DNA from: Escherichia phage YX22 | DNA length: 64,000 nucleotides | Sequence record: OR776998 | Strand: one strand, 5' to 3' | Shown here: positions 12,055-55,082 of the stretch, in pieces | Layout: every line of letters begins with the position of its first letter | How positions within the stretch are numbered: position 1 is the first letter of the stretch | Notes under the pieces: generated by a model | What the model was told of the DNA's origin: nothing | The model's database searches: none | Seen by the model: the letters and a program-made list of their open reading frames with translations, nothing else | Program-made: the position numbers and the translations under genes

Positions 12055-12360
12055 TTAACTCAGCCCCATCATACGACGGAACTTCATTGCTTTTTTCTTA
12101 CGACGCTCGATTTTGCGCTGGTATCCCATACCCATGCGTTTCTTGGCTCGGATCGCCTTGCGGTTGCCCAGCTTGCGAGTACGGCGCTCACTGGCGACCA
12201 TCACTTCACAACGGGAACCATCCGCAGACAGTTTGAAACCAGGAGCACACTGCAGACGGCGACGGCGTTTGCCTTTTGCGTTCACCTTGTCAATGACTTT
12301 CTGCTCATCCATGCGGGAAGCCAGGAAATCAGCGAACGTTGCAACTTCTTCGATTTCCAT
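12055..12360 (-). CDS. highly basic small protein (internal/core protein candidate)
   Basis: 101 aa, Arg/Lys-rich; position between portal and protease. Confidence 0.5.
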   Translation of the reverse strand: MEIEEVATFADFLASRMDEQKVIDKVNAKGKRRRRLQCAPGFKLSADGSRCEVMVASERRTRKLGNRKAIRAKKRMGMGYQRKIERRKKKAMKFRRMMGLS

Positions 12361-12372
12361 GATACATTCCTC

Positions 12373-12543
12373 TTACTGGTCGTCGCCGAAAGGACCCATG
12401 TCTTGGCTCAGGGAGTTCAAGACATATTCAGTACCCTGCTGGACCAGTTCTTGGGCGCGAGCGGATAGCTCCATTTCGCATTCAGCAGCAGCGGCATCAG
12501 TATCACCAGCGATGATTGCTTTTACCAGATCGATAGCGGCCAT
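12373..12543 (-). CDS. small prohead-core-like protein (gp67/68 position)
   Basis: 56 aa from ATG 12543 with AGAGGA SD; track start 12594 has anti-SD context. Confidence 0.4.
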   Translation of the reverse strand: MAAIDLVKAIIAGDTDAAAAECEMELSARAQELVQQGTEYVLNSLSQDMGPFGDDQ

Positions 12544-12580
12544 GTTCATATCCTCTAAATGTTTTCTATACTTAGTCGAA

Positions 12581-14275
12581 TTATTCTTCACCACCAGGAG
12601 GGTTAGTCGCTGGGATGACGTTAGGTCTGAATTTCAGTGGACTGACTTCCCCGCTGCCGAAGCCGCCGGACTCATCTGCCTGTACTTCAGGATATTTGCC
12701 TTCTTTCTTCTCTTTCGCGATCTTCTCTTGCTGGTCTTTGATGTCTTCATCAGACATGCGCAGCAGATTGCGTTGAGCAAAATCGATAGAGAAGAGAGTG
12801 CCGATATATGGTTCGATCTGACCGAGAGCCGCCATACGCTGCGACAAGATTTCGTTCTCTTGTTGTTCACGGATGAAGCTGTCAGAAGTGAATTCGAACT
12901 TGACGAACGGCTTGATCTTCTCATTCCAGTCAGCCTGGTCTGTAATGCCTTTTAATATCAGATGGCGACGCAGAAGTTCCAGGAAGATACCAGAAGAATA
13001 ACGACGGCGCAGGCTCGCACAGAACTTGTTGAAGCGCAATTCTTCCTGCGTAATTTCAGCAAGATTGGAACCACCGATGTTGATGGAACCTTCCTCTTGC
13101 AGGCGGCTCTTAGGGATCATCAGAGCCTCGTAGAGTTTCTCGCGGAAGTATACCACATGATCCATTTGACCCAGTTGGTCGCCACCGCCTACGTTGGAGA
13201 TCTCGGTTGCGTTCTGTCCTTCGCGACGTGGTAGCCAGTAGTCCTCAGCGATACCCATCAAATGAGTGTTACCAGCCACCTTACCAGTGGTGCGATCATA
13301 CGCCAGACGGTTCTTGAATTTGCCCATCATGGCTTGCATGTATTCTTCGGCCGACTTCTTACCCAGCGTACCCACGTCGAGATAGAACGCTCGCTTCTCA
13401 GGAGCACGTGTGATCGCATAGATCACCGTTGCATCTTCAGTTGTAACAAGGTTGTTCAGGGGACGGATAGCTGGGTTCAGCAGGCTTGGTACAACCCCAT
13501 TCGCCAGAGGCTCTTCACCACTGTCCAGATACACTATGCTCTCATCATCAAACACCAGCTCTTGCTGTGACGGTTGGAAGTTCTGAGACGTACCGGACTG
13601 GCCAGTGAATTGGTTGCGGTTGTAGTTCGGGTTGTAGTAGTATTGAAGTTTTACGTCATTGATGACTTCGATACCGTCGCGCATCGCTTTTTGAACGATG
13701 TACACTGGGCGGATACAGCGTGAGTCCATCATGATGAGTTTGGCGATACCCGCTTTCTTGTTCTTCGGGTCCACTACAACGTGGAATGCCTGACGGCCTT
13801 CAATATACCATTTGCGGATCTTCTGATACGCCGTGTTGTCAAAGTCAAGGAGATGCATGATCTCTTTGAATGCGTCAGTGATCTTCTCTTTGACTTCGTC
13901 TGTGATGCCATCTACCTTTTCCAGGTTGATGGTTACAGGAGTCTCTTCCTCTTCACAGGTGACGATGTCGTTGACAATGATATCCACAGCTTTACGAATC
14001 TCAGGCTGCTGAGCCATAGACTGGTACTCTTCGACCAGCTGTTTGACGTTGAGCAACTCATTCTCAACACCAACGAAATTGAATGTGTTCGCGCCGCCCT
14101 GGAGGATGATCGAGCCATCCTGAGAATCGTCCAGCGCAACAACAGTCGCTTTTGAAAGCAACTTCTCTTCTTGGTTCGTGACCATCTTGTCGGTATCAAT
14201 CGGCGCTTCTACTTTGCCGCCTCTACCGAACAGGCCGAAGAACCCATTTCCGAATGCACCATTTCCGAATGCCAT
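12581..14275 (-). CDS. gp20: portal protein, gp20-like
   Basis: 564 aa, positioned as T4 gene 20 between tube and core genes; GAGGA SD. Confidence 0.8.
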   Translation of the reverse strand: MAFGNGAFGNGFFGLFGRGGKVEAPIDTDKMVTNQEEKLLSKATVVALDDSQDGSIILQGGANTFNFVGVENELLNVKQLVEEYQSMAQQPEIRKAVDIIVNDIVTCEEEETPVTINLEKVDGITDEVKEKITDAFKEIMHLLDFDNTAYQKIRKWYIEGRQAFHVVVDPKNKKAGIAKLIMMDSRCIRPVYIVQKAMRDGIEVINDVKLQYYYNPNYNRNQFTGQSGTSQNFQPSQQELVFDDESIVYLDSGEEPLANGVVPSLLNPAIRPLNNLVTTEDATVIYAITRAPEKRAFYLDVGTLGKKSAEEYMQAMMGKFKNRLAYDRTTGKVAGNTHLMGIAEDYWLPRREGQNATEISNVGGGDQLGQMDHVVYFREKLYEALMIPKSRLQEEGSINIGGSNLAEITQEELRFNKFCASLRRRYSSGIFLELLRRHLILKGITDQADWNEKIKPFVKFEFTSDSFIREQQENEILSQRMAALGQIEPYIGTLFSIDFAQRNLLRMSDEDIKDQQEKIAKEKKEGKYPEVQADESGGFGSGEVSPLKFRPNVIPATNPPGGEE

Positions 14276-33676: not shown

Positions 33677-36600
33677 TTACTTCTGTTCAAGAGCAGAAAG
33701 TCTGGCTTCGATTCTTTCCAGTTTTCTTCGCTGATAAGCAGCTTCAGCAAAGAAAATTCCGTCAGGCCGCACGCCCCACTCCTCACCCTCTTCGTGAATA
33801 ACCACCTCAGTGAATACAGGCTCTTCCGTGGTGGTGACATTACCCTCCTCGTCAGTGTGTTCAACGATTTCATTGTGCGAAAATACCATATCGGTCATCC
33901 GTGGATACTTGTCATAGCACAGAACGGCATAACGACAATCCGTACTGTTTTCGTCCATCAGACCATGTGCAATGAATACATCACGAATTTGCTGAGCAAT
34001 AACCCCGAAGTGAATACGAGCTTCATTGCCTTTCAGTTGAACAGCATCTAACCACTGGTACATGATGTAGTGAACGTCACCCCAGGCATCCAGGAAAGCA
34101 TCATCAAAAACTACCGGCTCCGTTTTCTTCTCTCCGTTAGAAGTAACAATAGGGTTGCTTCCGAGGTATGCAGTGGTGAAACGGTTGCTGGGCCCACCAA
34201 GAGCAATAGCGTTATCGTTATAAGGCTTAACATCAGCAGTCTGGAACAGGTGCTCAGCTCCGTTGTAAACTATCCTGCGAGAAGCTGTGTTATTCGCACC
34301 GTAAAGCGTAATCTGTGCACCAGTAGAAGAACTGGTTCCTTCTCCACCGCAAAATATGGTGCGCTGTCCTGCTGGGTTATTAGTAGGTACAGATTTCCCA
34401 ATAAACCCATACTCGCCTTCCAGTAGCATTTCAGAGCGAATGTTATTACTGGTGCTGGCCCTAAGGGTCACATGACCTAAACCCAAATCTCCTGTAAATT
34501 CCATTGGCGCAGGGACAGTGCGAACCCCATTCGTATCAAAAAACACGGGAACAGCTCTGTCAGGTACAGCACCATATCTGAAATCCCTGGAAACACGATT
34601 GTCTGGGCCAATCTTCATTTTGTAGCAATACAAATCTGAGGGATGACCATCTGATTTGAATGGGTCTTTCGCTGAGTTATCTCCATATGTCCAGGGGTTC
34701 AGATGGTCTTCCCCACCGAACATGTAATAGATATAACTATCCTTAACAACCACTGAGCCAACACCGACTCCAGAGTTGACAATACCGCCCTGATAAATCT
34801 GGTCAGTGATATTCACCCACTGAGTATTATCCAGGTTCCAGGTGTCTAGGTTCACTCGCGTGTAGAACGTTCGTGGATAAGAAGTAAAGTATCGTTGATC
34901 AGGTACATTGGCTTCCCATTCGTTATCAGCACGCTCTGTGGCGAAAATGATTAGTTCATTACCGACTTTAGCGAACGGCAACGTAGAGTGGTGAACATTA
35001 TTAGGAAATCTGAGTGATTCCCAAGTCATGCCCAAATCATGACTACGATGCAACGAACTCCCCAAACGATCTGAACGAGTACCACGAGTTAAGACATAAA
35101 GAACGCCATCAAAATATTTAACGCAAGGCTCTGCCGCATCAGGTTCATAATCAGCAGGAATACGACGTTTTTGGTATAAACCCGGGTTATTAAACGCATC
35201 CGGGAAATACAACATGCCAACTTCACGAGGAGCAACATCACCTTGGTGATACCCCATCATGAATGAATCATTATTGATGGCGGTAAAACTATGAACTTCA
35301 GTCACCATTGGGATTAACCCAAGGCTGGTTTTACGCCACGGCGACTCATGGAACGATGTACCCATATGCCAACGGCTGGTAGAATTATTTTGGTCAAACG
35401 CCTGTTGATTTGGCGTGGTAACTGTGAAAGTGTTGCGGTCAATAACTGAAGTTACAGTCATATTCCCTGAAACTCCAGTCACCCCAGAGTTTGAGAAGTT
35501 AACAAAATCCCCAGCAAAAAGACCGTGTTCAGGGATAGTAATTACAGCCACAGGCTGGTTGGCGGCTTTAGTGATACCGCCTGTCGGATGGTAGTTACGG
35601 GACATGGGGCGATCCCACAACTCACAGGTTACCAGTGCGTTAGATGCCAATGTACGGGTCTCAATCATCGCAAAGAGACGATTACGCATCACCCCCATAC
35701 TCATGCAGTGGTAGTTAACTGTCGGATAGTCAGGATGTAGGTCGGTTAACCACTCCGGGGTTGTCCAGGTCTGTCCGTCATCCCCTGAACGAACCCAGGA
35801 TACATGCAGCCTGCTAACCCCATGTCTATCACTAGCCATGAACGGACAGTAAATAACATCGTCGTAAACGAACGCTTTATCTTGTGGCCACGCATTGTAA
35901 TAAGGGGTGTCCGTTATTTTGAACAGCTCGCCCTGAACAAATTCTTCAGAGGCATAATAAAGCGGCTGACCAGGAATACGCTCATAAACAAAACGAGTGT
36001 TGACGAATCGACTAATGTCAGGCAAGGATGTGACCTTATATGTCTTCCCATTGCCATTAATTTTCTGACCAACTGGTGCGGCGTTTAATACGCCATTAAG
36101 CGCTGAGGTGTCATCGGTGACCCCATCACCTTTTGCATTCCACCCGCGCGGGTCGAATGTGTCTCTCCATCTTGCGATCTGCAAATCTGGATATTTTGTT
36201 GCGCCATCAGGGTCAGAAAGCTGGCTTCTTAATGAAGCATCACCAACACTAACCCATGCACCAGTTCCAGTGCCACCAGTACTCCCAGGAGTTGAACCAG
36301 CTGGAACTGTTTTAGGGAATTCACCCTCCCAACGATACTTACCCGCTACATGAGTAAGGAGTTCATTTTTAACATTAAGTGTAGCACCAGTATCAAACGA
36401 CCCAGGTAAAGTCACATATTCTTCGCGACTTACGGCTAACTCCCCAAGGTCTACAGAACCAGCCGAATGAGCGAGGATTGCCTGTTCGTTCAGACTAACA
36501 GCAGTCGTTCCTGAAACAATACCTGAAGGAAGAGAATAAGCCCGTTGGGTAGACTCATCATAAATTACTTTAAATCCACTGAGATCAATACCAGCAGTGA

Positions 36601-36703
36601 AATAAACGACTTCGTCTTCTTTGACACCGAAATTTCGAGCGATAGATTGTTTGTTAACTTCTATGGAAGTGGAGCCGCGTGGTTGATTGAATTGAGAAAT
36701 CAT
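33677..36703 (-). CDS. tailspike 3 (1008 aa)
   Basis: Shares the ~150-aa N-terminal module with tailspike 1 at near identity; own late motif. Confidence 0.8.
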   Translation of the reverse strand: MISQFNQPRGSTSIEVNKQSIARNFGVKEDEVVYFTAGIDLSGFKVIYDESTQRAYSLPSGIVSGTTAVSLNEQAILAHSAGSVDLGELAVSREEYVTLPGSFDTGATLNVKNELLTHVAGKYRWEGEFPKTVPAGSTPGSTGGTGTGAWVSVGDASLRSQLSDPDGATKYPDLQIARWRDTFDPRGWNAKGDGVTDDTSALNGVLNAAPVGQKINGNGKTYKVTSLPDISRFVNTRFVYERIPGQPLYYASEEFVQGELFKITDTPYYNAWPQDKAFVYDDVIYCPFMASDRHGVSRLHVSWVRSGDDGQTWTTPEWLTDLHPDYPTVNYHCMSMGVMRNRLFAMIETRTLASNALVTCELWDRPMSRNYHPTGGITKAANQPVAVITIPEHGLFAGDFVNFSNSGVTGVSGNMTVTSVIDRNTFTVTTPNQQAFDQNNSTSRWHMGTSFHESPWRKTSLGLIPMVTEVHSFTAINNDSFMMGYHQGDVAPREVGMLYFPDAFNNPGLYQKRRIPADYEPDAAEPCVKYFDGVLYVLTRGTRSDRLGSSLHRSHDLGMTWESLRFPNNVHHSTLPFAKVGNELIIFATERADNEWEANVPDQRYFTSYPRTFYTRVNLDTWNLDNTQWVNITDQIYQGGIVNSGVGVGSVVVKDSYIYYMFGGEDHLNPWTYGDNSAKDPFKSDGHPSDLYCYKMKIGPDNRVSRDFRYGAVPDRAVPVFFDTNGVRTVPAPMEFTGDLGLGHVTLRASTSNNIRSEMLLEGEYGFIGKSVPTNNPAGQRTIFCGGEGTSSSTGAQITLYGANNTASRRIVYNGAEHLFQTADVKPYNDNAIALGGPSNRFTTAYLGSNPIVTSNGEKKTEPVVFDDAFLDAWGDVHYIMYQWLDAVQLKGNEARIHFGVIAQQIRDVFIAHGLMDENSTDCRYAVLCYDKYPRMTDMVFSHNEIVEHTDEEGNVTTTEEPVFTEVVIHEEGEEWGVRPDGIFFAEAAYQRRKLERIEARLSALEQK

Positions 36704-43952: not shown

Positions 43953-43978
43953 TTCAATAAACATACTCCCAATATAAT
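43953..43978 (+). promoter_or_regulatory. box-type promoter P1: TTCAATAA-N12-TATAAT
   Basis: Box about 43953-43960, TATAAT about 43973-43978, upstream of gene 44015. Confidence 0.45.
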
Positions 43979-46804: not shown

Positions 46805-46878
46805 GGTCCTGTAGCTCAGTCGGTTAGAGCAGTGAACTCATAATTCATTGGTCGTTGGTTCAAATCCAACCAGGATCA
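46805..46878 (+). tRNA. tRNA-Met (anticodon CAU; initiator, elongator or Ile2-type not resolved)
   Basis: Cloverleaf read by hand: acceptor GGTCCTG/CAGGATC, D-arm GCTC..GAGC, anticodon loop CTCATAA, T-arm GTTGG-TTCAAAT-CCAAC, CCA encoded. Confidence 0.8.
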
Positions 46879-47134
46879 CCATGTTAAGGGGTGTGAAACA
46901 TAACACTCCGACAAACACAGTAAGCGTTGCAGCCAGCTGTGTATAAAATGGGGATGACTCCGCATCGGAAACGATGCCCCAACTTCCAGAAATGGTCGGG
47001 CGCAAAGCCTGTAAAGTTCCAGGAGATCGAACCAGAAGGCACTGGTCGCCAGTTAACCAATCGGCGCTGAGAAGCGCGGGGAGTTGGGCTACGGCAGATC
47101 AAATGCTCAATCGGGTGTGAAGCCCGTCCAAATT

Positions 47135-47220
47135 GGAAGGTTGCCCGAGAGGTTTAAGGGACTCGACTGCTAATCGAGTGGGGCTTTTAGCCCCCGAAGG
47201 TTCGAATCCTTCACCTTCCG
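47135..47220 (+). tRNA. tRNA-Ser (anticodon GCU)
   Basis: Acceptor GGAAGGT/ACCTTCC, anticodon stem CTCGA/TCGAG with loop CTGCTAA, long variable arm, T-arm GAAGG-TTCGAAT-CCTTC, CCA encoded. Confidence 0.8.
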
Positions 47221-47443
47221 CCAAATTACGGGCGTGACTTCCTGAAGAGTTAGAAGATGTGCATGTCGACTCTCTCTCGTAATCGGGGTGTTTAGGAAGT
47301 TAAGAAAATCGCGGCGAGGATAGTGAAATGCAAATAGCTTTCTCTACGTCGACGACTTCAGGTTCGACTCCTGACGCGCTCTCCCATAGGGTAGTACCAG
47401 TGCAAGCGTGTAGTCTTTCAACCCATCCCATCGATGTGGTGTA

Positions 47444-48328: not shown

Positions 48329-49522
48329 ATGAACAAGACCATCTTCGATATCCTTTCCCTCGACCGCAACCTGGTCCATTGGGAAGATTATCTCTACAAG
48401 CACACCCCGTGCGAACTTGTCGTCAACCCAGAAACCAACCAGCAGGTCTGGTTCAAGCGTGAAGATTATTTTGCGCCGCTGTCTAACTATGCCAACGCCA
48501 AGCAGGGCATCAATGGCAGCAAACTCCGCCAGGCCATCTGGTTGATGGTTGAGCACCTCAAGGCCGGAGGCTCCCCTGACATCATCCATGGTACTGTCGT
48601 TGGTAGTCCGCAGTCCCCTATGGCGACGGCAGTCTCTCGGCACTTCGGCGGCAAGACAACCACTGTACTCGGAGCGACCAAACCCACCACCTGTATGAAC
48701 CACGACATGGTGGCAATGTCAGCCTGGTTTGGTAGTGAGTTCAACTTCGTCGGCTCGGGTTACAACAGCACGATCCAGCCGCGCTGTAAGAAGTTGATCG
48801 AACAACAGAATCCAAAGGCGTATTATCTGGAATATGGTATCACCCTCGACCATACAGCGCATTCTCCTGAGCGCATCGCTGGCTTCCATATGCTGGGTGG
48901 CGAGCAGGTTGCCAACATCCCTGACCATATTACCGATCTGATTATCCCAGCCGGATCGTGCAACTCTTGCACAAGTATCCTGACCGGGCTGGCAATGCAT
49001 CCGAAGCCTAATCTGAAGCGTGTGTATCTGATTGGCATCGGTCCGAACCGCCTGGACTTTATCGAGAGCCGTCTGCGCATCATCGGCAAACATGCCAATC
49101 TGCCGCACATTGTCGACTTCACCCGTCGCTATCACGACAACCCAGACTATGTACACGGCAAGAAGGAGCTTCAGCATGCCTCTAAGAGCGTTTCGCTGGC
49201 TGGCCTCCTGAGTGGTATCAGACATAAGGAAGAGCCAGAGGTCGTGCTTCCTCGCTTTGAGGTACACCATTGGGATCTTCATACCACTAATTGGGTTCGT
49301 TACAATGACCTGATGGAATATCAGTGGGGTGATATTGAGTTGCACCCTCGCTATGAAGGCAAGGTCATGACCTGGATCCAGCAGAACAAGCCAGAGGTGC
49401 TCAATGAGAACACTCTGTTCTGGATTGTGGGTAGCAAGCCATACATCGATCCGATGAAGGCAGCATGCCCTGAGCTGGCTATCCCTGAAACAGTTCCTGT
49501 AAACGAATTCACCCCTTCCTGA
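48329..49522 (+). CDS. PLP-dependent fold-type II enzyme (ACC deaminase/D-cysteine desulfhydrase-like); DNA-modification candidate
   Basis: HTP, KREDY and GSKLRQ resemble AcdS-family KRED..GGNKTRKLE lysine motif. Confidence 0.55.
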   Translation: MNKTIFDILSLDRNLVHWEDYLYKHTPCELVVNPETNQQVWFKREDYFAPLSNYANAKQGINGSKLRQAIWLMVEHLKAGGSPDIIHGTVVGSPQSPMATAVSRHFGGKTTTVLGATKPTTCMNHDMVAMSAWFGSEFNFVGSGYNSTIQPRCKKLIEQQNPKAYYLEYGITLDHTAHSPERIAGFHMLGGEQVANIPDHITDLIIPAGSCNSCTSILTGLAMHPKPNLKRVYLIGIGPNRLDFIESRLRIIGKHANLPHIVDFTRRYHDNPDYVHGKKELQHASKSVSLAGLLSGIRHKEEPEVVLPRFEVHHWDLHTTNWVRYNDLMEYQWGDIELHPRYEGKVMTWIQQNKPEVLNENTLFWIVGSKPYIDPMKAACPELAIPETVPVNEFTPS

Positions 49523-49657
49523 CCCTCCTGAACACCCCATACAATCCGTGTGGGGTATCTATGAAAACCTTCCTCCAATATTTCCGAGAGGCGTCCTGTA
49601 CAAACCAGACCTGGCACCTAAATACCCCCATATGGCTAACCCACTGAGGAACCCAAC

Positions 49658-50116
49658 ATGCCAACCTCCAAATTGTTTGAATCAGAATACACCAATGACA
49701 TCCCTGTATGGACTGGTGTTCAAGACGGTATCACGATTGAGCTGTTTGATCGTGAAGAGACAGGCGCGGAAGAGATCTATGCAGGCGTTGAAGGCACTGA
49801 TGTTGTCCGCGCCGCCGTAGCACTTGCCACCTTCCTGGAAGATGCACCGATTGATGGCGTGCCGTTCGAGGCGCACGTAGATCCTAAGGATCCGACCTCT
49901 ATCATCATTACAGTGAATGGGGTGCCATACACTTCGTACAGCATCGAGACGGACGAAGAGGGCAGCGGAGCGCTGTATATTGCCACCGACCTGCAGCTGG
50001 AAGACGATGAGATGGATTATCTGATTCAGAACGGGGTGCTGCCACCGTTTACCGATGAAGAACTGGACACGGAACTGGCTGCTGTCGGGGACGACGAAGA
50101 CTTCTGGGAAGAATAA
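49658..50116 (+). CDS. highly acidic protein (about 39 Asp/Glu vs 5 Lys/Arg/His); DNA-mimic or inhibitor candidate
   Basis: 152 aa, GAGGAA SD, acidic C-terminal tail DDEDFWEE. Confidence 0.6.
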   Translation: MPTSKLFESEYTNDIPVWTGVQDGITIELFDREETGAEEIYAGVEGTDVVRAAVALATFLEDAPIDGVPFEAHVDPKDPTSIIITVNGVPYTSYSIETDEEGSGALYIATDLQLEDDEMDYLIQNGVLPPFTDEELDTELAAVGDDEDFWEE

Positions 50117-50141
50117 GAAAAGGGGCGTTAAGCCCCTTTCT

Positions 50142-51048: not shown

Positions 51049-51097
51049 GATGTATTTCCTTCTCTTCAGATTGTTGTTTGTTCGTACTACAATTAGA

Positions 51098-51126
51098 AGT
51101 ATACGCCAGTTATTGAAGAAGTAAAC
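51098..51126 (-). promoter_or_regulatory. T4-early-like promoter (GTTTAC -35, 17 nt, TATACT -10)
   Basis: Minus strand GTTTAC TTCTTCAATAACTGGCG TATACT; spacer contains the TTCAATAA box. Confidence 0.4.
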
Positions 51127-52050: not shown

Positions 52051-55050
52051 ATGACCGTTTTCTATACGAACGTTGCCCGCAGGGGCAATGACCTGTTGAT
52101 TCGAATTGCAGATGACATGGGTAATCGCCGTCTGTTGAAAAAGAAATTCGAACCCACTCTCTATTTACCCACGGCTGACTATTCAAATGTTGAAAAGGTC
52201 GGCCTTCTCAATGAACCCCTGGTAGCCAAGCAGTTCCCTTCCATGCGTGACGCTGATAACTATCTTGAAGAGTACAAGGAAGTCCAGGGTGCTGCCATTT
52301 ACGGGCAGACCGATTATGCATACCAGTTCATTGCCCATAGCTTTCCTGGAAAGATTGAGCCGGATTATTCCAACATCCATATTGCTAACCTCGATATCGA
52401 AGTGTTCTCCGCCGGGTGGAAAGATGGAAAGATGACCAAAGGTCCATTCCCTCACCCAACCATTGAGCAGCAGACGTTCAAAGGAAATGAGGCGCGCATT
52501 CGCCGCTTCCATAAACAAGTGCTGGCCAACCATGACTTCATCCGTGAGCACTTCCCTGGTTCTTTCATCAGCAACAACGTCACTGATCAGTTCCCTATCA
52601 TTGACAGCAACGGCAAGATCACCCAAGACATGAATGCGGCGTTCCCTATCACGCTTATCCAGCTTCAGGACATGGCGACCAATAAGTTCATGGTGTGGGG
52701 TATGCCGTGCGCGAAGGATCGTGCGAAGTTCAGATACGATCCAGAAGACGCGGAGATCGGTGGACTTGAGGTTGTCTATCAGGAGTTCACTACTGAACAA
52801 GATCTGCTGCGCTCTTTCCTGGACTTCTGGTCGGAGCGTCAGTTTGATGGCTGGACAGGCTGGAACATTGAAACGTTCGATAGCCCGTATCTTGTTGAGC
52901 GCATGAATCAGGTTCTGGGTGAGGCTGAAACGTCGCGCCTCAGTCCTTGGGGTATCATTAAGAAGCGTATCATTCGCGATAAGAAGGGCGATATCACGAC
53001 GTATCAGTTCGTGGGTTGCCCTATGCTCGATTATATGCAGATCTACAAGAAACACACGTACACCACCCGTGAACGCTACTCTCTTGACTGGATTGCGTAT
53101 TGTGAGCTGGGTGAGAAGAAGATGGACTACAGTGAGAGCAAGTCACTCTTTGATCTGTACTTCAACGACTACTGCAAACACACCCGATATGGTATCAAAG
53201 ACGTTAAGCTGGTATGGCGACTTGAACAGAAGCTGCGCCTGCTCCAGCTGATGTTCGTCCTGGCCTACCGCACCAAGTCCAACTATGAAGACGGTCTGGG
53301 CACTGTGGCTCCGTGGCTGGCCATGTGCTACTATCGTCTGTATGAGAAGGGGATAGTGCCTAAGATCCAGCGTGTATACGATGGTCCGACCGACTTTGAG
53401 GGTGCATACGTCATGGATGTGACACCAGGAATCTACTTCTGGGTCTTCTCGGAAGATTTGAACTCCCTGTATCCTCACATCATTCAGCAGTACAACCTCG
53501 GTCCAGAGACTATCGTTGGCGACAAACACCAGCGCCGTGAGATTATTGAGGCTATGTGTGAAGAGCTGGCTGCTCAGATGAATAACATGGCAACGCCGAT
53601 GCACAAACGTCGGTTGATGAAAGCCCTTCACGACAAGCTGTTGCGTGCGGTTGACGAACGCCTGCAGGTTGTTGATGAGTTGGTTGCCCTGGGTGAGTTC
53701 CACTTTGAAACCCTGCGCCGTTACAACGTGTCGTTCACGCCGAACGTTCAATTCTTCAGCAACGAGAAGATGTCGTTCCTGTCTGAAATCATGCGCGGTA
53801 TCTACAGCGACCGTAAAGTAGAGAAGGCCAAGGGTCTGAAGTATGAGCAGTGGGCTGGCTGGTGTAAAGAGATGTCGAAGGGTGACTTCCATCTTGAGTC
53901 TGCCATGAAGTCTCGCTACTATGACCCAGAGTGGTATGAAGAGCACAAGAACATTGATCTTGATGCCCTGACCGAAGTGATGAAGAAGTGGGAAGACCTG
54001 GGCGTCGCTCAAGATACCCTACAGCAAGGTCTGAAGATCTTGATGAACGCAGGTTATGGCGCTATCTCGAACGTCTGGTTCAAAGAGTACTTCAACCTCA
54101 ACATTGCCGAAGCCATCACCACATCCGGTCAGCTGATCAACAAGTGGAATAAGCGTTACACTGATGACTATCTGAACAAGCTGTGTGGTACAACAGGCCA
54201 GGACTTCGTCATCGCAGGGGATACCGACTCCAACTACATCTGCATTGAGCGTCTTGTCAAGCAGTTGTGGCCTGATGTTACTGACCATCATGCTATGGTT
54301 GATAATATCGACCAATGGATCAAAGACAACTACCAGCCGAAGACCAATGAGTGGGCACAGCTTCTGTGTAACACCATGAACGGATTTGAACAGCGCATGG
54401 TGTGGGAGCGTGAGGTCATTGCGTCAGCCGCTGTCTGGCGAGCCAAGAAGATGTATGCCATGGCCGTGTACGACAGTGAGGGTATCAAGTACGAGAAGCC
54501 GAAGATCAAGTTCAAAGGTCTGGAAGCCCGCAAGTCCACCACGCCGGAATGGTGTCGTGAACGCCTTGTCAAGTGCTATGAGAAGATCCTACTCGGCACC
54601 GAAGAGGAAGTACAGACGCTCATCTCCCAGTACAAAGAGGAGTACATGAAACTCTCTGTAGACGATATCGCCAAGGCTTCCGGCGTGTCCGACATAGAGA
54701 AGTGTGTGGCTGCTGACGGATCGTTCATCTCTGGTGCTCATTTTGCTGCAAAGGCTTGTGTGGGTTACAACCGTCTGGTTGAGAAGAACGAAGATCTGGG
54801 TCTACCGATGATCGAGTCGGGTGATAAGGTACAGATGGTGTTGTTGAAGCCAGGCAACCCATTCGGCCAGAATTACTTTGCATATCCTGAGTTCTTCCCC
54901 GAGGAGCTTGGTCTGGGTAAATGGGTGGATTATCAGGCGGCCTTTGAGAAGTCCTTCATTGATCCGATTCAGTCTATCCTCGACGTGGTCGGCTGGTCAC
55001 ACAAGCGCCGTGTGAACCTTCTTGCCATGATGCAAAAGAAGAAAGGTTGA
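52051..55050 (+). CDS. gp43: family B DNA polymerase, T4 gp43-like
   Basis: N-terminus MTVFYTNVARRGNDLL.. matches T4 MKEFYISIETVGNNIV..; SYSLDWIAYCELGEKK, VAGDTDS and KKMYA motifs; GGAGAA SD. Confidence 0.9.
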   Translation: MTVFYTNVARRGNDLLIRIADDMGNRRLLKKKFEPTLYLPTADYSNVEKVGLLNEPLVAKQFPSMRDADNYLEEYKEVQGAAIYGQTDYAYQFIAHSFPGKIEPDYSNIHIANLDIEVFSAGWKDGKMTKGPFPHPTIEQQTFKGNEARIRRFHKQVLANHDFIREHFPGSFISNNVTDQFPIIDSNGKITQDMNAAFPITLIQLQDMATNKFMVWGMPCAKDRAKFRYDPEDAEIGGLEVVYQEFTTEQDLLRSFLDFWSERQFDGWTGWNIETFDSPYLVERMNQVLGEAETSRLSPWGIIKKRIIRDKKGDITTYQFVGCPMLDYMQIYKKHTYTTRERYSLDWIAYCELGEKKMDYSESKSLFDLYFNDYCKHTRYGIKDVKLVWRLEQKLRLLQLMFVLAYRTKSNYEDGLGTVAPWLAMCYYRLYEKGIVPKIQRVYDGPTDFEGAYVMDVTPGIYFWVFSEDLNSLYPHIIQQYNLGPETIVGDKHQRREIIEAMCEELAAQMNNMATPMHKRRLMKALHDKLLRAVDERLQVVDELVALGEFHFETLRRYNVSFTPNVQFFSNEKMSFLSEIMRGIYSDRKVEKAKGLKYEQWAGWCKEMSKGDFHLESAMKSRYYDPEWYEEHKNIDLDALTEVMKKWEDLGVAQDTLQQGLKILMNAGYGAISNVWFKEYFNLNIAEAITTSGQLINKWNKRYTDDYLNKLCGTTGQDFVIAGDTDSNYICIERLVKQLWPDVTDHHAMVDNIDQWIKDNYQPKTNEWAQLLCNTMNGFEQRMVWEREVIASAAVWRAKKMYAMAVYDSEGIKYEKPKIKFKGLEARKSTTPEWCRERLVKCYEKILLGTEEEVQTLISQYKEEYMKLSVDDIAKASGVSDIEKCVAADGSFISGAHFAAKACVGYNRLVEKNEDLGLPMIESGDKVQMVLLKPGNPFGQNYFAYPEFFPEELGLGKWVDYQAAFEKSFIDPIQSILDVVGWSHKRRVNLLAMMQKKKG

Positions 55051-55082
55051 TTCAATAAACCAAAGGGGGATATAATTCCCCC
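55051..55082 (+). promoter_or_regulatory. box-type promoter P2 with -10 hexamer in hairpin loop
   Basis: TTCAATAA ACCAAAGGGGGA TATAAT TCCCCC directly after polymerase stop. Confidence 0.45.

What the first reader, a model, noticed from the sequence alone, without database searches (positions are those of the whole stretch)
49658..50116. Strongly acidic 152-aa early protein: DNA-mimic or inhibitor candidate
About 39 Asp/Glu against about 5 basic residues, with a good SD and an early-region location. This composition is typical of phage DNA mimics and anti-restriction proteins (Ocr, ArdA, T4 Arn), though acidity alone does not prove that role.
Basis: inference. Interest (0 to 1): 0.5.

Follow-up and report, generated by a model that had tools for sequence, protein, structure and literature searches.

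The report
Acidic late virion protein of Ackermannviridae
The very acidic 152-residue protein is real, but it is a late-expressed component of the phage particle, probably carried inside the head and injected with the DNA, not an early protein; whether it mimics DNA is untested.

Summary
The ORF (49658-50116, +) is real. It has 152 aa, 39 D/E against 4 K/R and 1 H, and pI 4.05, which makes it by far the most acidic ORF in the window. The window is an Ackermannviridae (ViI-like) phage.

The 'early' label fails:
- The gene sits 30 nt downstream of the family's late-promoter motif CTAAATACCCC. The same motif precedes the tailspike genes, and it is conserved upstream of the orthologue in six genera.
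- Orthologues were found by mass spectrometry in purified virions: LIMEstone1 ORF174 (96% identical) and Sajous1 gp115 (31 spectra).

In most relatives the gene follows a small ADP-ribosyltransferase (ART-PolyVal) that is also in the virion and has a T4-like capsid-targeting N-terminus. In this window that gene is reduced to a 28-codon remnant, yet the acidic gene remains intact and under strong purifying selection.

Its disordered but conserved N-terminus (MxxS.LFE) loosely resembles T4 capsid-targeting and processing peptides. The phage also encodes a T4-type prohead protease.

No sequence or fold similarity to Ocr, ArdA, Arn or any solved structure was found.

Best reading: a head-internal, ejected polyanionic protein. 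A decoy or inhibitor role is possible but unproven. Interest is moderate.

The parts
49618..49628 (+). Late-promoter motif CTAAATACCCC (T4-type -10-like), 30 nt upstream of the ATG
   Evidence: There are 6 exact copies in the window, where about 0.5 are expected even allowing one mismatch. The other five precede three tailspike genes, a DUF7217 virion-protein gene and uvsW. The motif is conserved upstream of the orthologue in six genera. The LIMEstone1 record annotates it as a 'putative late promoter', and the EspM4VN paper names it as a family regulatory motif.
49646..49650 (+). Shine-Dalgarno GAGGA, 7 nt before the start codon
   Evidence: Read directly from the sequence.
49658..50116 (+). 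Acidic protein gene (152 aa plus stop); member of phrog_3852; orthologue of LIMEstone1 ORF174 and Sajous1 gp115
49658..49687 (+). N-terminal peptide MPTSKLFESE (aa 1-10): disordered but conserved, proposed capsid-targeting and processing peptide. Cleavage is predicted after E8 (L-F-E) or E10.
   Evidence: pLDDT is 34 for residues 1-10. M1, S4, L6 and F7 are invariant and E8 nearly so. Compare T4 IPII/IPIII MKTYQEFIAE, IPI MKTFKEF and Alt MELITELFDE, and the L/I-x-E rule of gp21. This is an inference, not shown.
49694..50050 (+). Folded core (aa 13-131), order of elements bbb-a-bbbb-a, about 26 D/E against 3 K/R
   Evidence: AF2 model: mean pLDDT 72, with the core mostly 75-90. No significant structural neighbour was found.
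50051..50113 (+). Disordered acidic C-terminal tail (aa 132-152, 11 D/E) ending in the invariant D-F-W motif
   Evidence: pLDDT is below 50. D148, F149 and W150 are invariant, also in the most distant members, which keep DDFW or DDLW.
50119..50139 (.). Bidirectional intrinsic terminator between the acidic gene and the convergent leftward genes
   Evidence: Detected on both strands. It is annotated at the same place in LIMEstone1.
49561..49647 (+). Remnant of the neighbouring ART-PolyVal ADP-ribosyltransferase gene (MKTFLQYFRE plus a frameshifted tail, 28 codons). About 400 nt are deleted, and its own late-promoter motif is mutated at 49528-49538.
   Evidence: Alignment with LIMEstone1 and CAU_YEP3; translation. 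The intact gene in relatives is Pfam PF18760, 43 bits against a cut-off of 31.

Best explanation
The gene encodes a late-expressed virion protein that is conserved across the Ackermannviridae. I judge it most likely to be a head-internal ('ejection') protein. In this reading a short, disordered N-terminal peptide (MxxS.LFE...) directs it into the T4-type prohead core. The Peptidase_S77 prohead protease probably trims that peptide after Glu8 or Glu10. The mature polyanionic protein then sits in the filled head and enters the cell with the hypermodified DNA. Once inside, its very acidic globular domain and its acidic-aromatic tail (..DDEDFWEE) would act as a decoy that occupies a host DNA-binding protein, such as a nuclease, a defence protein or a nucleoid protein, before any phage gene is expressed. 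What is shown: a real gene under purifying selection, a late-promoter context, and virion association of close orthologues. What is inferred: head-internal location, targeting and cleavage by the N-terminus, and ejection. What is speculative: the decoy activity and its target.
For: Late expression:
- The motif CTAAATACCCC lies 30 nt upstream of the ATG and is shared with the tailspike and other virion genes.
- It is conserved upstream of the orthologue in Agtrevirus-like phages, Limestonevirus, Kuttervirus, Taipeivirus, Miltonvirus and Nezavisimistyvirus.
- No early-type TTCAAT-N14-TATAAT motif or good sigma-70 site lies upstream.
- Relatives encode gp55 and gp33 homologues.

Virion association:
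- LIMEstone1 ORF174 (96% identical) is a 'confirmed structural protein'. It was found through one peptide giving 12.5% coverage, which matches the only convenient tryptic peptide of a protein with 4 K/R.
- Sajous1 gp115 gave 31 spectra from CsCl-purified virions. The gene numbering was checked through gp119, the tail needle knob.

Head-internal cargo context:
- The adjacent gene in most relatives is a 150-aa ART-PolyVal enzyme that is also in virions. Its N-terminus, MKTFL[EQ][FY]..E, nearly copies the T4 capsid-targeting sequence MKTYQEFIAE.
- Two further LIMEstone1 virion proteins (ORF080, ORF082) carry the same kind of N-terminus.
- The window encodes a Peptidase_S77 protease, a T4 scaffold, a portal and a gp23-type capsid protein that retains a homologous propeptide.

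The acidic protein's own N-terminus:
- It is predicted to be disordered yet has invariant S4, L6 and F7. T4 experiments map targeting to positions 4 and 7 and processing to positions 8 and 10.
- L-F-E fits the L/I-x-E cleavage rule.

Independence from the ART:
- The acidic gene is present in about 277 records against about 227 for the ART.
- It is present in genera that lack the ART, and here beside a deleted ART gene.
- dN/dS is 0.034 against LIMEstone1.
Against: - No peptide-level data show N-terminal cleavage. The Sajous1 peptide table held here is truncated and lacks this protein.
- The N-terminus matches the T4 capsid-targeting sequence only loosely (M1, T3, F7, E10). It has Ser rather than an aromatic residue at position 4, and it fails a motif built from the T4 sequences alone (and the reasoning from it).
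- Known T4 internal proteins are basic, not acidic.
- Mass spectrometry of whole virions cannot separate head from tail, and the LIMEstone1 list also holds one-peptide contaminants such as ligase, rIIB and PhoH.
- Anti-defence proteins are usually variable accessory genes, whereas this one is a family-wide core gene.
- There is no structural similarity to any known DNA mimic.
- A Taipeivirus, a genus whose sequenced members carry the gene, is still moderately BREX-sensitive.
Confidence: 0.4

Rival explanations
1. Structural or assembly polyanion. In this reading the protein is a prohead-core or internal component needed for head morphogenesis or DNA condensation. It would be analogous to the very acidic T4 gp67, or act as a counter-charge for DNA carrying the cationic 5-NeOmdU base, and it would have no function in the host cell.
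For: - It is a family-wide core gene with strong purifying selection. The window protein is 74% identical to its Kuttervirus (Sajous1) orthologue, the same figure a published PhiSH19 table gives for the prohead scaffold against another ViI-like phage.
- T4 gp67 is 80 aa with 35 D/E, pI 4.05, and an N-terminal L-I-E site.
- The gp67-like ORF of this window (12373-12594, -) lacks the poly-acidic tail of T4 gp67.
- The gene lies next to the PLP enzyme of the thymidine hypermodification pathway.
Against: - The predicted fold is a globular alpha/beta domain, not the helical, elongated type typical of scaffold or core proteins.
- The gene lies outside the head-morphogenesis module (portal-67-68-21-22-23), which is complete in the window.
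- It sits beside a clear host-directed effector, the ART.
Confidence: 0.25
2. Chaperone, adaptor or inhibitor for co-packaged cargo. In this reading the acidic protein binds the ART, and/or the other proteins bearing capsid-targeting sequences. It would keep them inactive or ejection-competent, in the way class I type III secretion chaperones handle effectors.
For: - In most genomes it lies immediately downstream of the packaged ART, and both are in virions.
- It is small and acidic, and its strand and helix order resembles part of the CesT-type fold.
Against: - All structural scores are below significance, and kinase N-lobes score higher.
- The gene is retained intact and constrained where the ART is absent (Miltonvirus, Nezavisimistyvirus) or deleted (this window).
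- It has its own promoter.
Confidence: 0.2
3. Not a true virion component. In this reading it is an abundant late cytoplasmic protein that co-purifies with particles, and it acts late in infection, for example by inhibiting a host nuclease during packaging or lysis.
For: The LIMEstone1 identification rests on one peptide, in a list that also contains obvious non-structural proteins. The Sajous1 authors warn of contaminants, and RegB scored 31 spectra too.
Against: The protein was detected independently in two genera. It gave 31 spectra despite only about 3 usable tryptic peptides. It also has a late promoter, a virion-protein neighbour and a conserved terminal peptide.
Confidence: 0.1
4. One reading: an early-expressed cytoplasmic DNA mimic or anti-restriction protein of the Ocr, ArdA or Arn type.
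For: The extreme acidity and the small size.
Against: The late-promoter motif and the lack of an early promoter. Virion proteomics. No family or fold match to Ocr, ArdA or Arn.
Confidence: 0.05

Closest known systems
T4 internal head proteins IPI*, IPII and IPIII, and the packaged ADP-ribosyltransferase Alt
   Same: They are small late proteins carried inside a T4-type head. They are loaded through an N-terminal peptide of about 10 residues, trimmed by the gp21-type protease after L/I-x-E, and ejected with the DNA. IPI* is an anti-restriction protein. The acidic protein's neighbour is, like Alt, a packaged ART. The N-termini compared were MKTYQEFIAE, MKTFKEF and MELITELFDE against MPTSKLFESE.
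   Different: There is no sequence homology beyond the short N-terminal resemblance. The T4 internal proteins are basic, whereas this protein has net charge about -35. Cleavage and ejection have not been shown for it. It is a conserved core gene, whereas the T4 internal-protein loci are hypervariable.
T7 Ocr (gp0.3), ArdA and T4 Arn: DNA-mimic anti-restriction proteins
   Same: They are small and extremely acidic, so a polyanionic surface could compete with DNA for DNA-binding proteins.
   Different: There is no Pfam or sequence match and no fold match. Those proteins are made early in the cell, whereas this one is late and found in virions. The charge geometry could not be examined.
T4 gp67 (prehead internal peptide precursor)
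   Same: It is a very acidic (pI 4.05) component of the T4-type prohead core with an N-terminal L-I-E processing site.
   Different: gp67 is helical, has a poly-D/E tail and is encoded inside the head module. This phage has its own gp67-like ORF there. The acidic protein is a globular alpha/beta domain encoded elsewhere.
Phage P1 Dar proteins and the 'polyvalent proteins' of phages and conjugative elements
   Same: They embody the concept of anti-defence or takeover enzymes pre-packaged in the capsid. ART-PolyVal, the neighbour's domain, was defined in such proteins. One record even labels the neighbour 'DarB-like antirestriction protein'.
   Different: Those are large multidomain proteins. 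The acidic protein has no recognisable enzymatic domain.
Class I (CesT-type) type III secretion chaperones
   Same: They are about 130-150 aa and acidic, with a mixed beta-sheet plus helices. They accompany effectors that must pass a narrow channel. Weak recurrent structural hits were seen.
   Different: The scores are not significant, there is no sequence relation, and the N-terminal helix of the CesT fold is missing.

Membership tests
phrog_3852 / Ackermannviridae 'unknown structural protein' (LIMEstone1 ORF174, Sajous1 gp115) | Full-length sequence match to the family profile and to the named orthologues | tested here: met
   E 3.7e-81 over residues 1-152. The protein is 96% identical to the Dickeya phage orthologues and 74% to Sajous1 gp115.
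T4-type capsid-targeted internal head proteins | Present in purified virions | tested here: met
   Published mass spectrometry of orthologues: LIMEstone1 ORF174 and Sajous1 gp115 with 31 spectra. This phage itself was not tested.
T4-type capsid-targeted internal head proteins | N-terminal targeting sequence of about 10 residues like MKTYQEFIAE, ending in an L/I-x-E site | tested here: inconclusive
   MPTSKLFESE shares M1, T3, F7 and E10, and L6-F7-E8 fits L-x-E. Position 4 is Ser, not an aromatic residue. The stretch is disordered yet conserved. The neighbouring ART, ORF080 and ORF082 match much better.
T4-type capsid-targeted internal head proteins | The genome encodes a T4-type prohead protease and scaffolding core | tested here: met
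   Peptidase_S77 at 103 bits, T4_CASP at 149 bits, Portal_T4 at 494 bits, and a gp23 homologue with a propeptide.
T4-type capsid-targeted internal head proteins | Late transcription | tested here: met
   A conserved CTAAATACCCC motif lies 30 nt upstream. This is a sequence inference; no transcript data were found.
T4-type capsid-targeted internal head proteins | N-terminal propeptide removed in the mature virion, and protein ejected into the host | not testable with these tools
   The peptide table held for Sajous1 is truncated and lacks this protein.
Ocr / ArdA / Arn DNA mimics | Sequence membership (Pfam or other profile) | tested here: not met
   No Pfam, NCBIfam or PADLOC hit for the protein or for any of 21 family members. 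No PDB sequence hit.
Ocr / ArdA / Arn DNA mimics | Fold similarity to a solved DNA mimic | tested here: not met
Ocr / ArdA / Arn DNA mimics | Early expression before or as the DNA becomes exposed | tested here: not met
   A late motif and no early or sigma-70 promoter upstream.
Ocr / ArdA / Arn DNA mimics | Surface carboxylates spaced like DNA phosphates, and binding to restriction enzymes | not testable with these tools
Class I T3SS chaperones (CesT-like) | Significant structural match to the CesT fold | tested here: inconclusive

The most novel reading that the evidence does not exclude
The protein would be the first example of a pre-packaged DNA (or SSB-tail) mimic. In this reading it is a polyanionic decoy loaded into the capsid through a T4-like targeting peptide and co-injected with the hypermodified genome. 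It would neutralise a conserved host DNA-binding nuclease or defence sensor at time zero. It would form part of a set of Ackermannviridae head-internal effectors (ART-PolyVal, ORF080-like, ORF082-like) that all share a T4-type capsid-targeting sequence.
Probability: 0.2. Interest if true: 0.7.

Novelty: new member of a known kind. Interest (0 to 1): 0.42.

Why it matters
Ackermannviridae are widely used biocontrol and therapy phages, yet about half of their genes are unannotated. This analysis re-files a conserved 'hypothetical protein' as a late, virion-borne and probably injected protein. It also links that protein to a packaged ADP-ribosyltransferase and to T4-style capsid-targeting peptides.

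Three practical consequences follow:
- It yields a concrete, testable list of candidate ejected effectors in this family.
- If the N-terminal peptide really targets cargo to the head, it could be used to load foreign proteins into these phages, as was done with T4.
- If the protein is a decoy, it would show that DNA-mimic-type inhibition can be delivered pre-made rather than expressed early.

Tried and rejected
- Profile searches (Pfam, NCBIfam, PADLOC), run on the protein and on all 21 aligned homologues, gave nothing.
- The PDB sequence profile search gave only a spurious AliC hit at E 0.11.
- An exhaustive HMM search of 1.8 billion representatives found only 8 clusters. All are the same small family, apart from one spurious repeat protein, P0034.
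- I looked for peptide-level evidence of N-terminal processing in the Sajous1 supplementary table. The stored file is truncated and holds no peptide of gp115 or gp116.
- The phiD3, phiPD10.3 and EspM4VN proteome papers list their proteins only in figures.
- No Ackermannviridae transcriptome paper was found.
- No Ackermannviridae capsid structure is in the PDB, so the protein's absence from the PDB says nothing.
- I recalled that the CBA120 paper defined the late motif. That was wrong: the paper says the motif was not identified. The motif is named in the EspM4VN paper, and I verified it here by enrichment.
- The idea that the protein is merely the ART's dedicated partner is weakened by its presence where the ART is absent or deleted.
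- Surface-charge periodicity could not be computed because the model coordinates are not exposed.

Full report
**Observation.** The ORF at 49658-50116 (+) exists as described. It encodes 152 aa with 39 Asp/Glu, 4 Lys/Arg and 1 His, giving pI 4.05 and 16.7 kDa. A GAGGA ribosome-binding site lies 7 nt upstream, and a bidirectional hairpin terminator at 50119-50139 follows the stop codon. Among 62 non-overlapping ORFs of the window it is the extreme outlier in charge, at -0.23 per residue against -0.12 for the next and a median of -0.015. It is a genuine gene. It matches phrog_3852 end to end (E 3.7e-81) and has full-length homologues in 277 phage records. dN/dS is 0.03-0.11 against moderately diverged orthologues.

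**Where the window comes from.** The region is 97% identical to Escherichia phage vB_EcoM-ZQ1, and all relatives are Ackermannviridae, the ViI-like myoviruses. The family is narrow. There are 28 clusters at 90% identity. A filter-free HMM search of 1.84 billion representatives found only 8 clusters at 50% identity. All are about 150 aa, apart from three short fragments (57-76 aa) and one spurious repeat protein. Public names are only 'hypothetical protein' or 'unknown/putative structural protein'.

**The gene is not early.**
- Thirty nucleotides upstream of the ATG lies CTAAATACCCC (49618-49628).
- The window holds six exact copies of this motif, where about 0.5 are expected even allowing one mismatch.
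- The other five copies precede three tailspike genes, a DUF7217 virion-protein gene and uvsW.
- The motif is conserved upstream of the orthologue in Limestonevirus, Kuttervirus, Taipeivirus, Miltonvirus, Nezavisimistyvirus and the Yersinia phage CAU_YEP3.
- The LIMEstone1 record annotates it as a 'putative late promoter', and the EspM4VN paper names it as a family regulatory motif.
- The family encodes gp55 and gp33 homologues.
- The early/middle-type motif TTCAAT-N14-TATAAT occurs elsewhere in the window but not upstream of this gene. No good sigma-70 site lies there either.

**Virion association.**
- LIMEstone1 ORF174 (96% identical) is a 'confirmed structural protein' by ESI-MS/MS. It was found through one peptide covering 12.5% of the protein. 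That coverage equals the 19-residue tryptic peptide EETGAEEIYAGVEGTDVVR. With only four K/R the protein offers very few usable peptides, so one peptide is less weak than it looks.
- In Salmonella phage Sajous1, gp115 gave 31 spectra from CsCl-purified virions. I mapped gp115 to the orthologue through the GenBank record. I checked the numbering through gp119, which is the tail needle knob both in the paper and by Pfam.
- A caveat applies. Whole-virion mass spectrometry cannot tell head from tail, and both lists contain some non-structural proteins.

**The neighbour.**
- In most relatives a gene of about 150 aa lies between the PLP-dependent enzyme and the acidic gene. It is Pfam ART-PolyVal (PF18760, 43 bits against a cut-off of 31). 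It is also a virion protein: Sajous1 gp116 with 10 spectra, and LIMEstone1 ORF173.
- Its N-terminus, MKTFL[EQD][FY]..E, is close to the T4 capsid-targeting sequence. I read that sequence from the T4 genome itself: IPII/IPIII MKTYQEFIAE and IPI MKTFKEF. The packaged T4 ART Alt begins MELITELFDE.
- In this window the ART gene is destroyed. About 400 nt are deleted, leaving a 28-codon remnant at 49561-49647. Its own late motif is mutated at 49528-49538.
- The ART is found in about 227 records against about 277 for the acidic gene. It is absent from Miltonvirus and Nezavisimistyvirus, which keep the acidic gene.
- The acidic gene here is intact, keeps its own promoter and is strongly constrained, with dN/dS 0.034 against LIMEstone1.
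- It therefore works independently of the ART.

**Anatomy of the protein.**
- AlphaFold2 on 21 homologues gives mean pLDDT 72. The core (residues 13-131) is confident, with element order bbb-a-bbbb-a.
- Residues 1-12 and 132-152 are disordered.
- Both disordered ends are nevertheless among the best-conserved parts. M1, S4, L6 and F7 are invariant, E8 nearly so, and D148, F149 and W150 are invariant. The most distant members also keep SKLFE at the start and DDFW or DDLW at the end. Conserved linear motifs in flexible tails point to interaction or processing sites.

**Targeting hypothesis.**
- T4 work shows that a 10-residue N-terminal peptide suffices to load proteins into the prohead core. Targeting depends on positions 4 and 7 and processing on positions 8 and 10, and gp21 cleaves after L/I-x-E.
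- This phage has the T4-type machinery: a Peptidase_S77 protease, a T4 scaffold, a portal, gp67-like and gp68-like core ORFs, and a gp23 homologue whose propeptide aligns with that of T4.
- In LIMEstone1, four proteins have N-termini of this capsid-targeting type: ORF080, ORF082, the ART and, more loosely, the acidic protein. All four are MS-confirmed virion proteins.
- The acidic protein's MPTSKLFESE shares M1, T3, F7 and E10 with T4 IPIII and has L-F-E at positions 6-8.
- I therefore propose that it is head-internal cargo, trimmed after E8 or E10 and ejected with the DNA. This is an inference. The match is weaker than for the ART, and I could find no peptide evidence.

**What it might do.**
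- No known family or fold fits. There are no profile hits and no PDB sequence hit.
- The best Foldseek PDB E-value is 0.12. BFVD returns only the protein's own family.
- The protein is therefore not a member of Ocr, ArdA or Arn.
- The core alone still carries about 26 D/E against 3 K/R. The tail is acidic and aromatic, reminiscent (from my own knowledge, not tested) of SSB and T7 gp2.5 C-terminal tails. A decoy for a DNA-binding protein remains the most natural activity for an injected polyanion.
- Weak circumstantial evidence against a general Ocr-like role comes from a Taipeivirus that is still moderately BREX-sensitive.

**Rivals.**
- A structural or assembly polyanion analogous to T4 gp67. 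That protein is 80 aa with 35 D/E, and the local gp67-like ORF lacks such a tail.
- A chaperone or adaptor for co-packaged cargo.
- A contaminant of virion preparations.

**Verdict.** The protein is best filed as a conserved, late, virion-borne and probably head-internal protein of Ackermannviridae. That makes it a new member of the known class of capsid-delivered phage proteins. I am about 85% confident in 'late virion protein', about 55% in 'head-internal and ejected', and about 20-25% in a decoy or anti-defence activity.

Noticed in passing
window 49528-49647 (+): Remnant of an ART-PolyVal ADP-ribosyltransferase gene. The first roughly 11 codons (MKTFLQYFRE, a T4-like capsid-targeting sequence) are fused out of frame to the last roughly 25 nt, after an internal deletion of about 400 nt. 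The gene's late-promoter motif is mutated to CTGAACACCCC. Close relatives (RPN242, AV101, LIMEstone1, CAU_YEP3) keep the gene intact, so the loss is recent.
   Followed up: yes
L007 8789-9358 (-) and 10520-11011 (-) (LIMEstone1 ORF080, ORF082): Two MS-confirmed 'unknown structural proteins' start with MKPFIQYFNE and MSKPSFLQFMQE, which are T4-like capsid-targeting peptides. They lie in the same cluster as a ferritin/Dps-like virion protein (ORF078). By domain and position this cluster probably corresponds to the Sajous1 gp215-217 cluster that was interpreted as a tail 'ferrojan horse' system, though I did not map the orthology. The N-termini suggest head-internal cargo instead.
   Followed up: partly
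window 33677-36703 (-): Tailspike with a complete endosialidase architecture (End_N_terminal, beta-propeller at 680 bits, End_tail_spike, Peptidase_S74 chaperone). This implies a K1 (polysialic acid) capsule host. It is one of three tailspike genes that are each preceded by the late motif.
   Followed up: no
window 12055-12594 (-): A gp68-like ORF (12055-12360, with a basic C-terminus like that of T4 gp68) and a gp67-like ORF (12373-12594) lie between the portal and the prohead protease. The gp67-like ORF lacks the poly-Asp/Glu tail of T4 gp67.
   Followed up: partly
window 52051-55050 (+): The family B DNA polymerase is a single uninterrupted 999-aa ORF. In the ZQ1, LIMEstone1 and allotria records the polymerase is split by intron or homing-endonuclease insertions.
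   Followed up: no
window 43953-43978, 55051-55076 (+) and others: The second family motif, TTCAATAA-N12-TATAAT (early/middle type), is enriched: 17 matches with up to 2 mismatches against 5.6 expected. It marks different genes from those marked by the late motif. One copy (51092-51117, -) serves the leftward genes that converge on the acidic gene.
   Followed up: partly
window 48329-49522 (+): A PLP-dependent enzyme (PALP, below the Pfam cut-off; phrog_3650) lies immediately upstream. It is annotated in relatives as threonine ammonia-lyase or PLP enzyme. From my own knowledge it is probably the PLP enzyme of the 5-NeOmdU thymidine hypermodification pathway; I did not check this. The gene order around it differs in Miltonvirus and Nezavisimistyvirus.
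   Followed up: no
window 46805-46881 and 47135-47223 (+): tRNA-Met(CAT) and tRNA-Ser(GCT) genes lie upstream of the operon. Relatives carry a larger and variable tRNA set at the same place.
   Followed up: no
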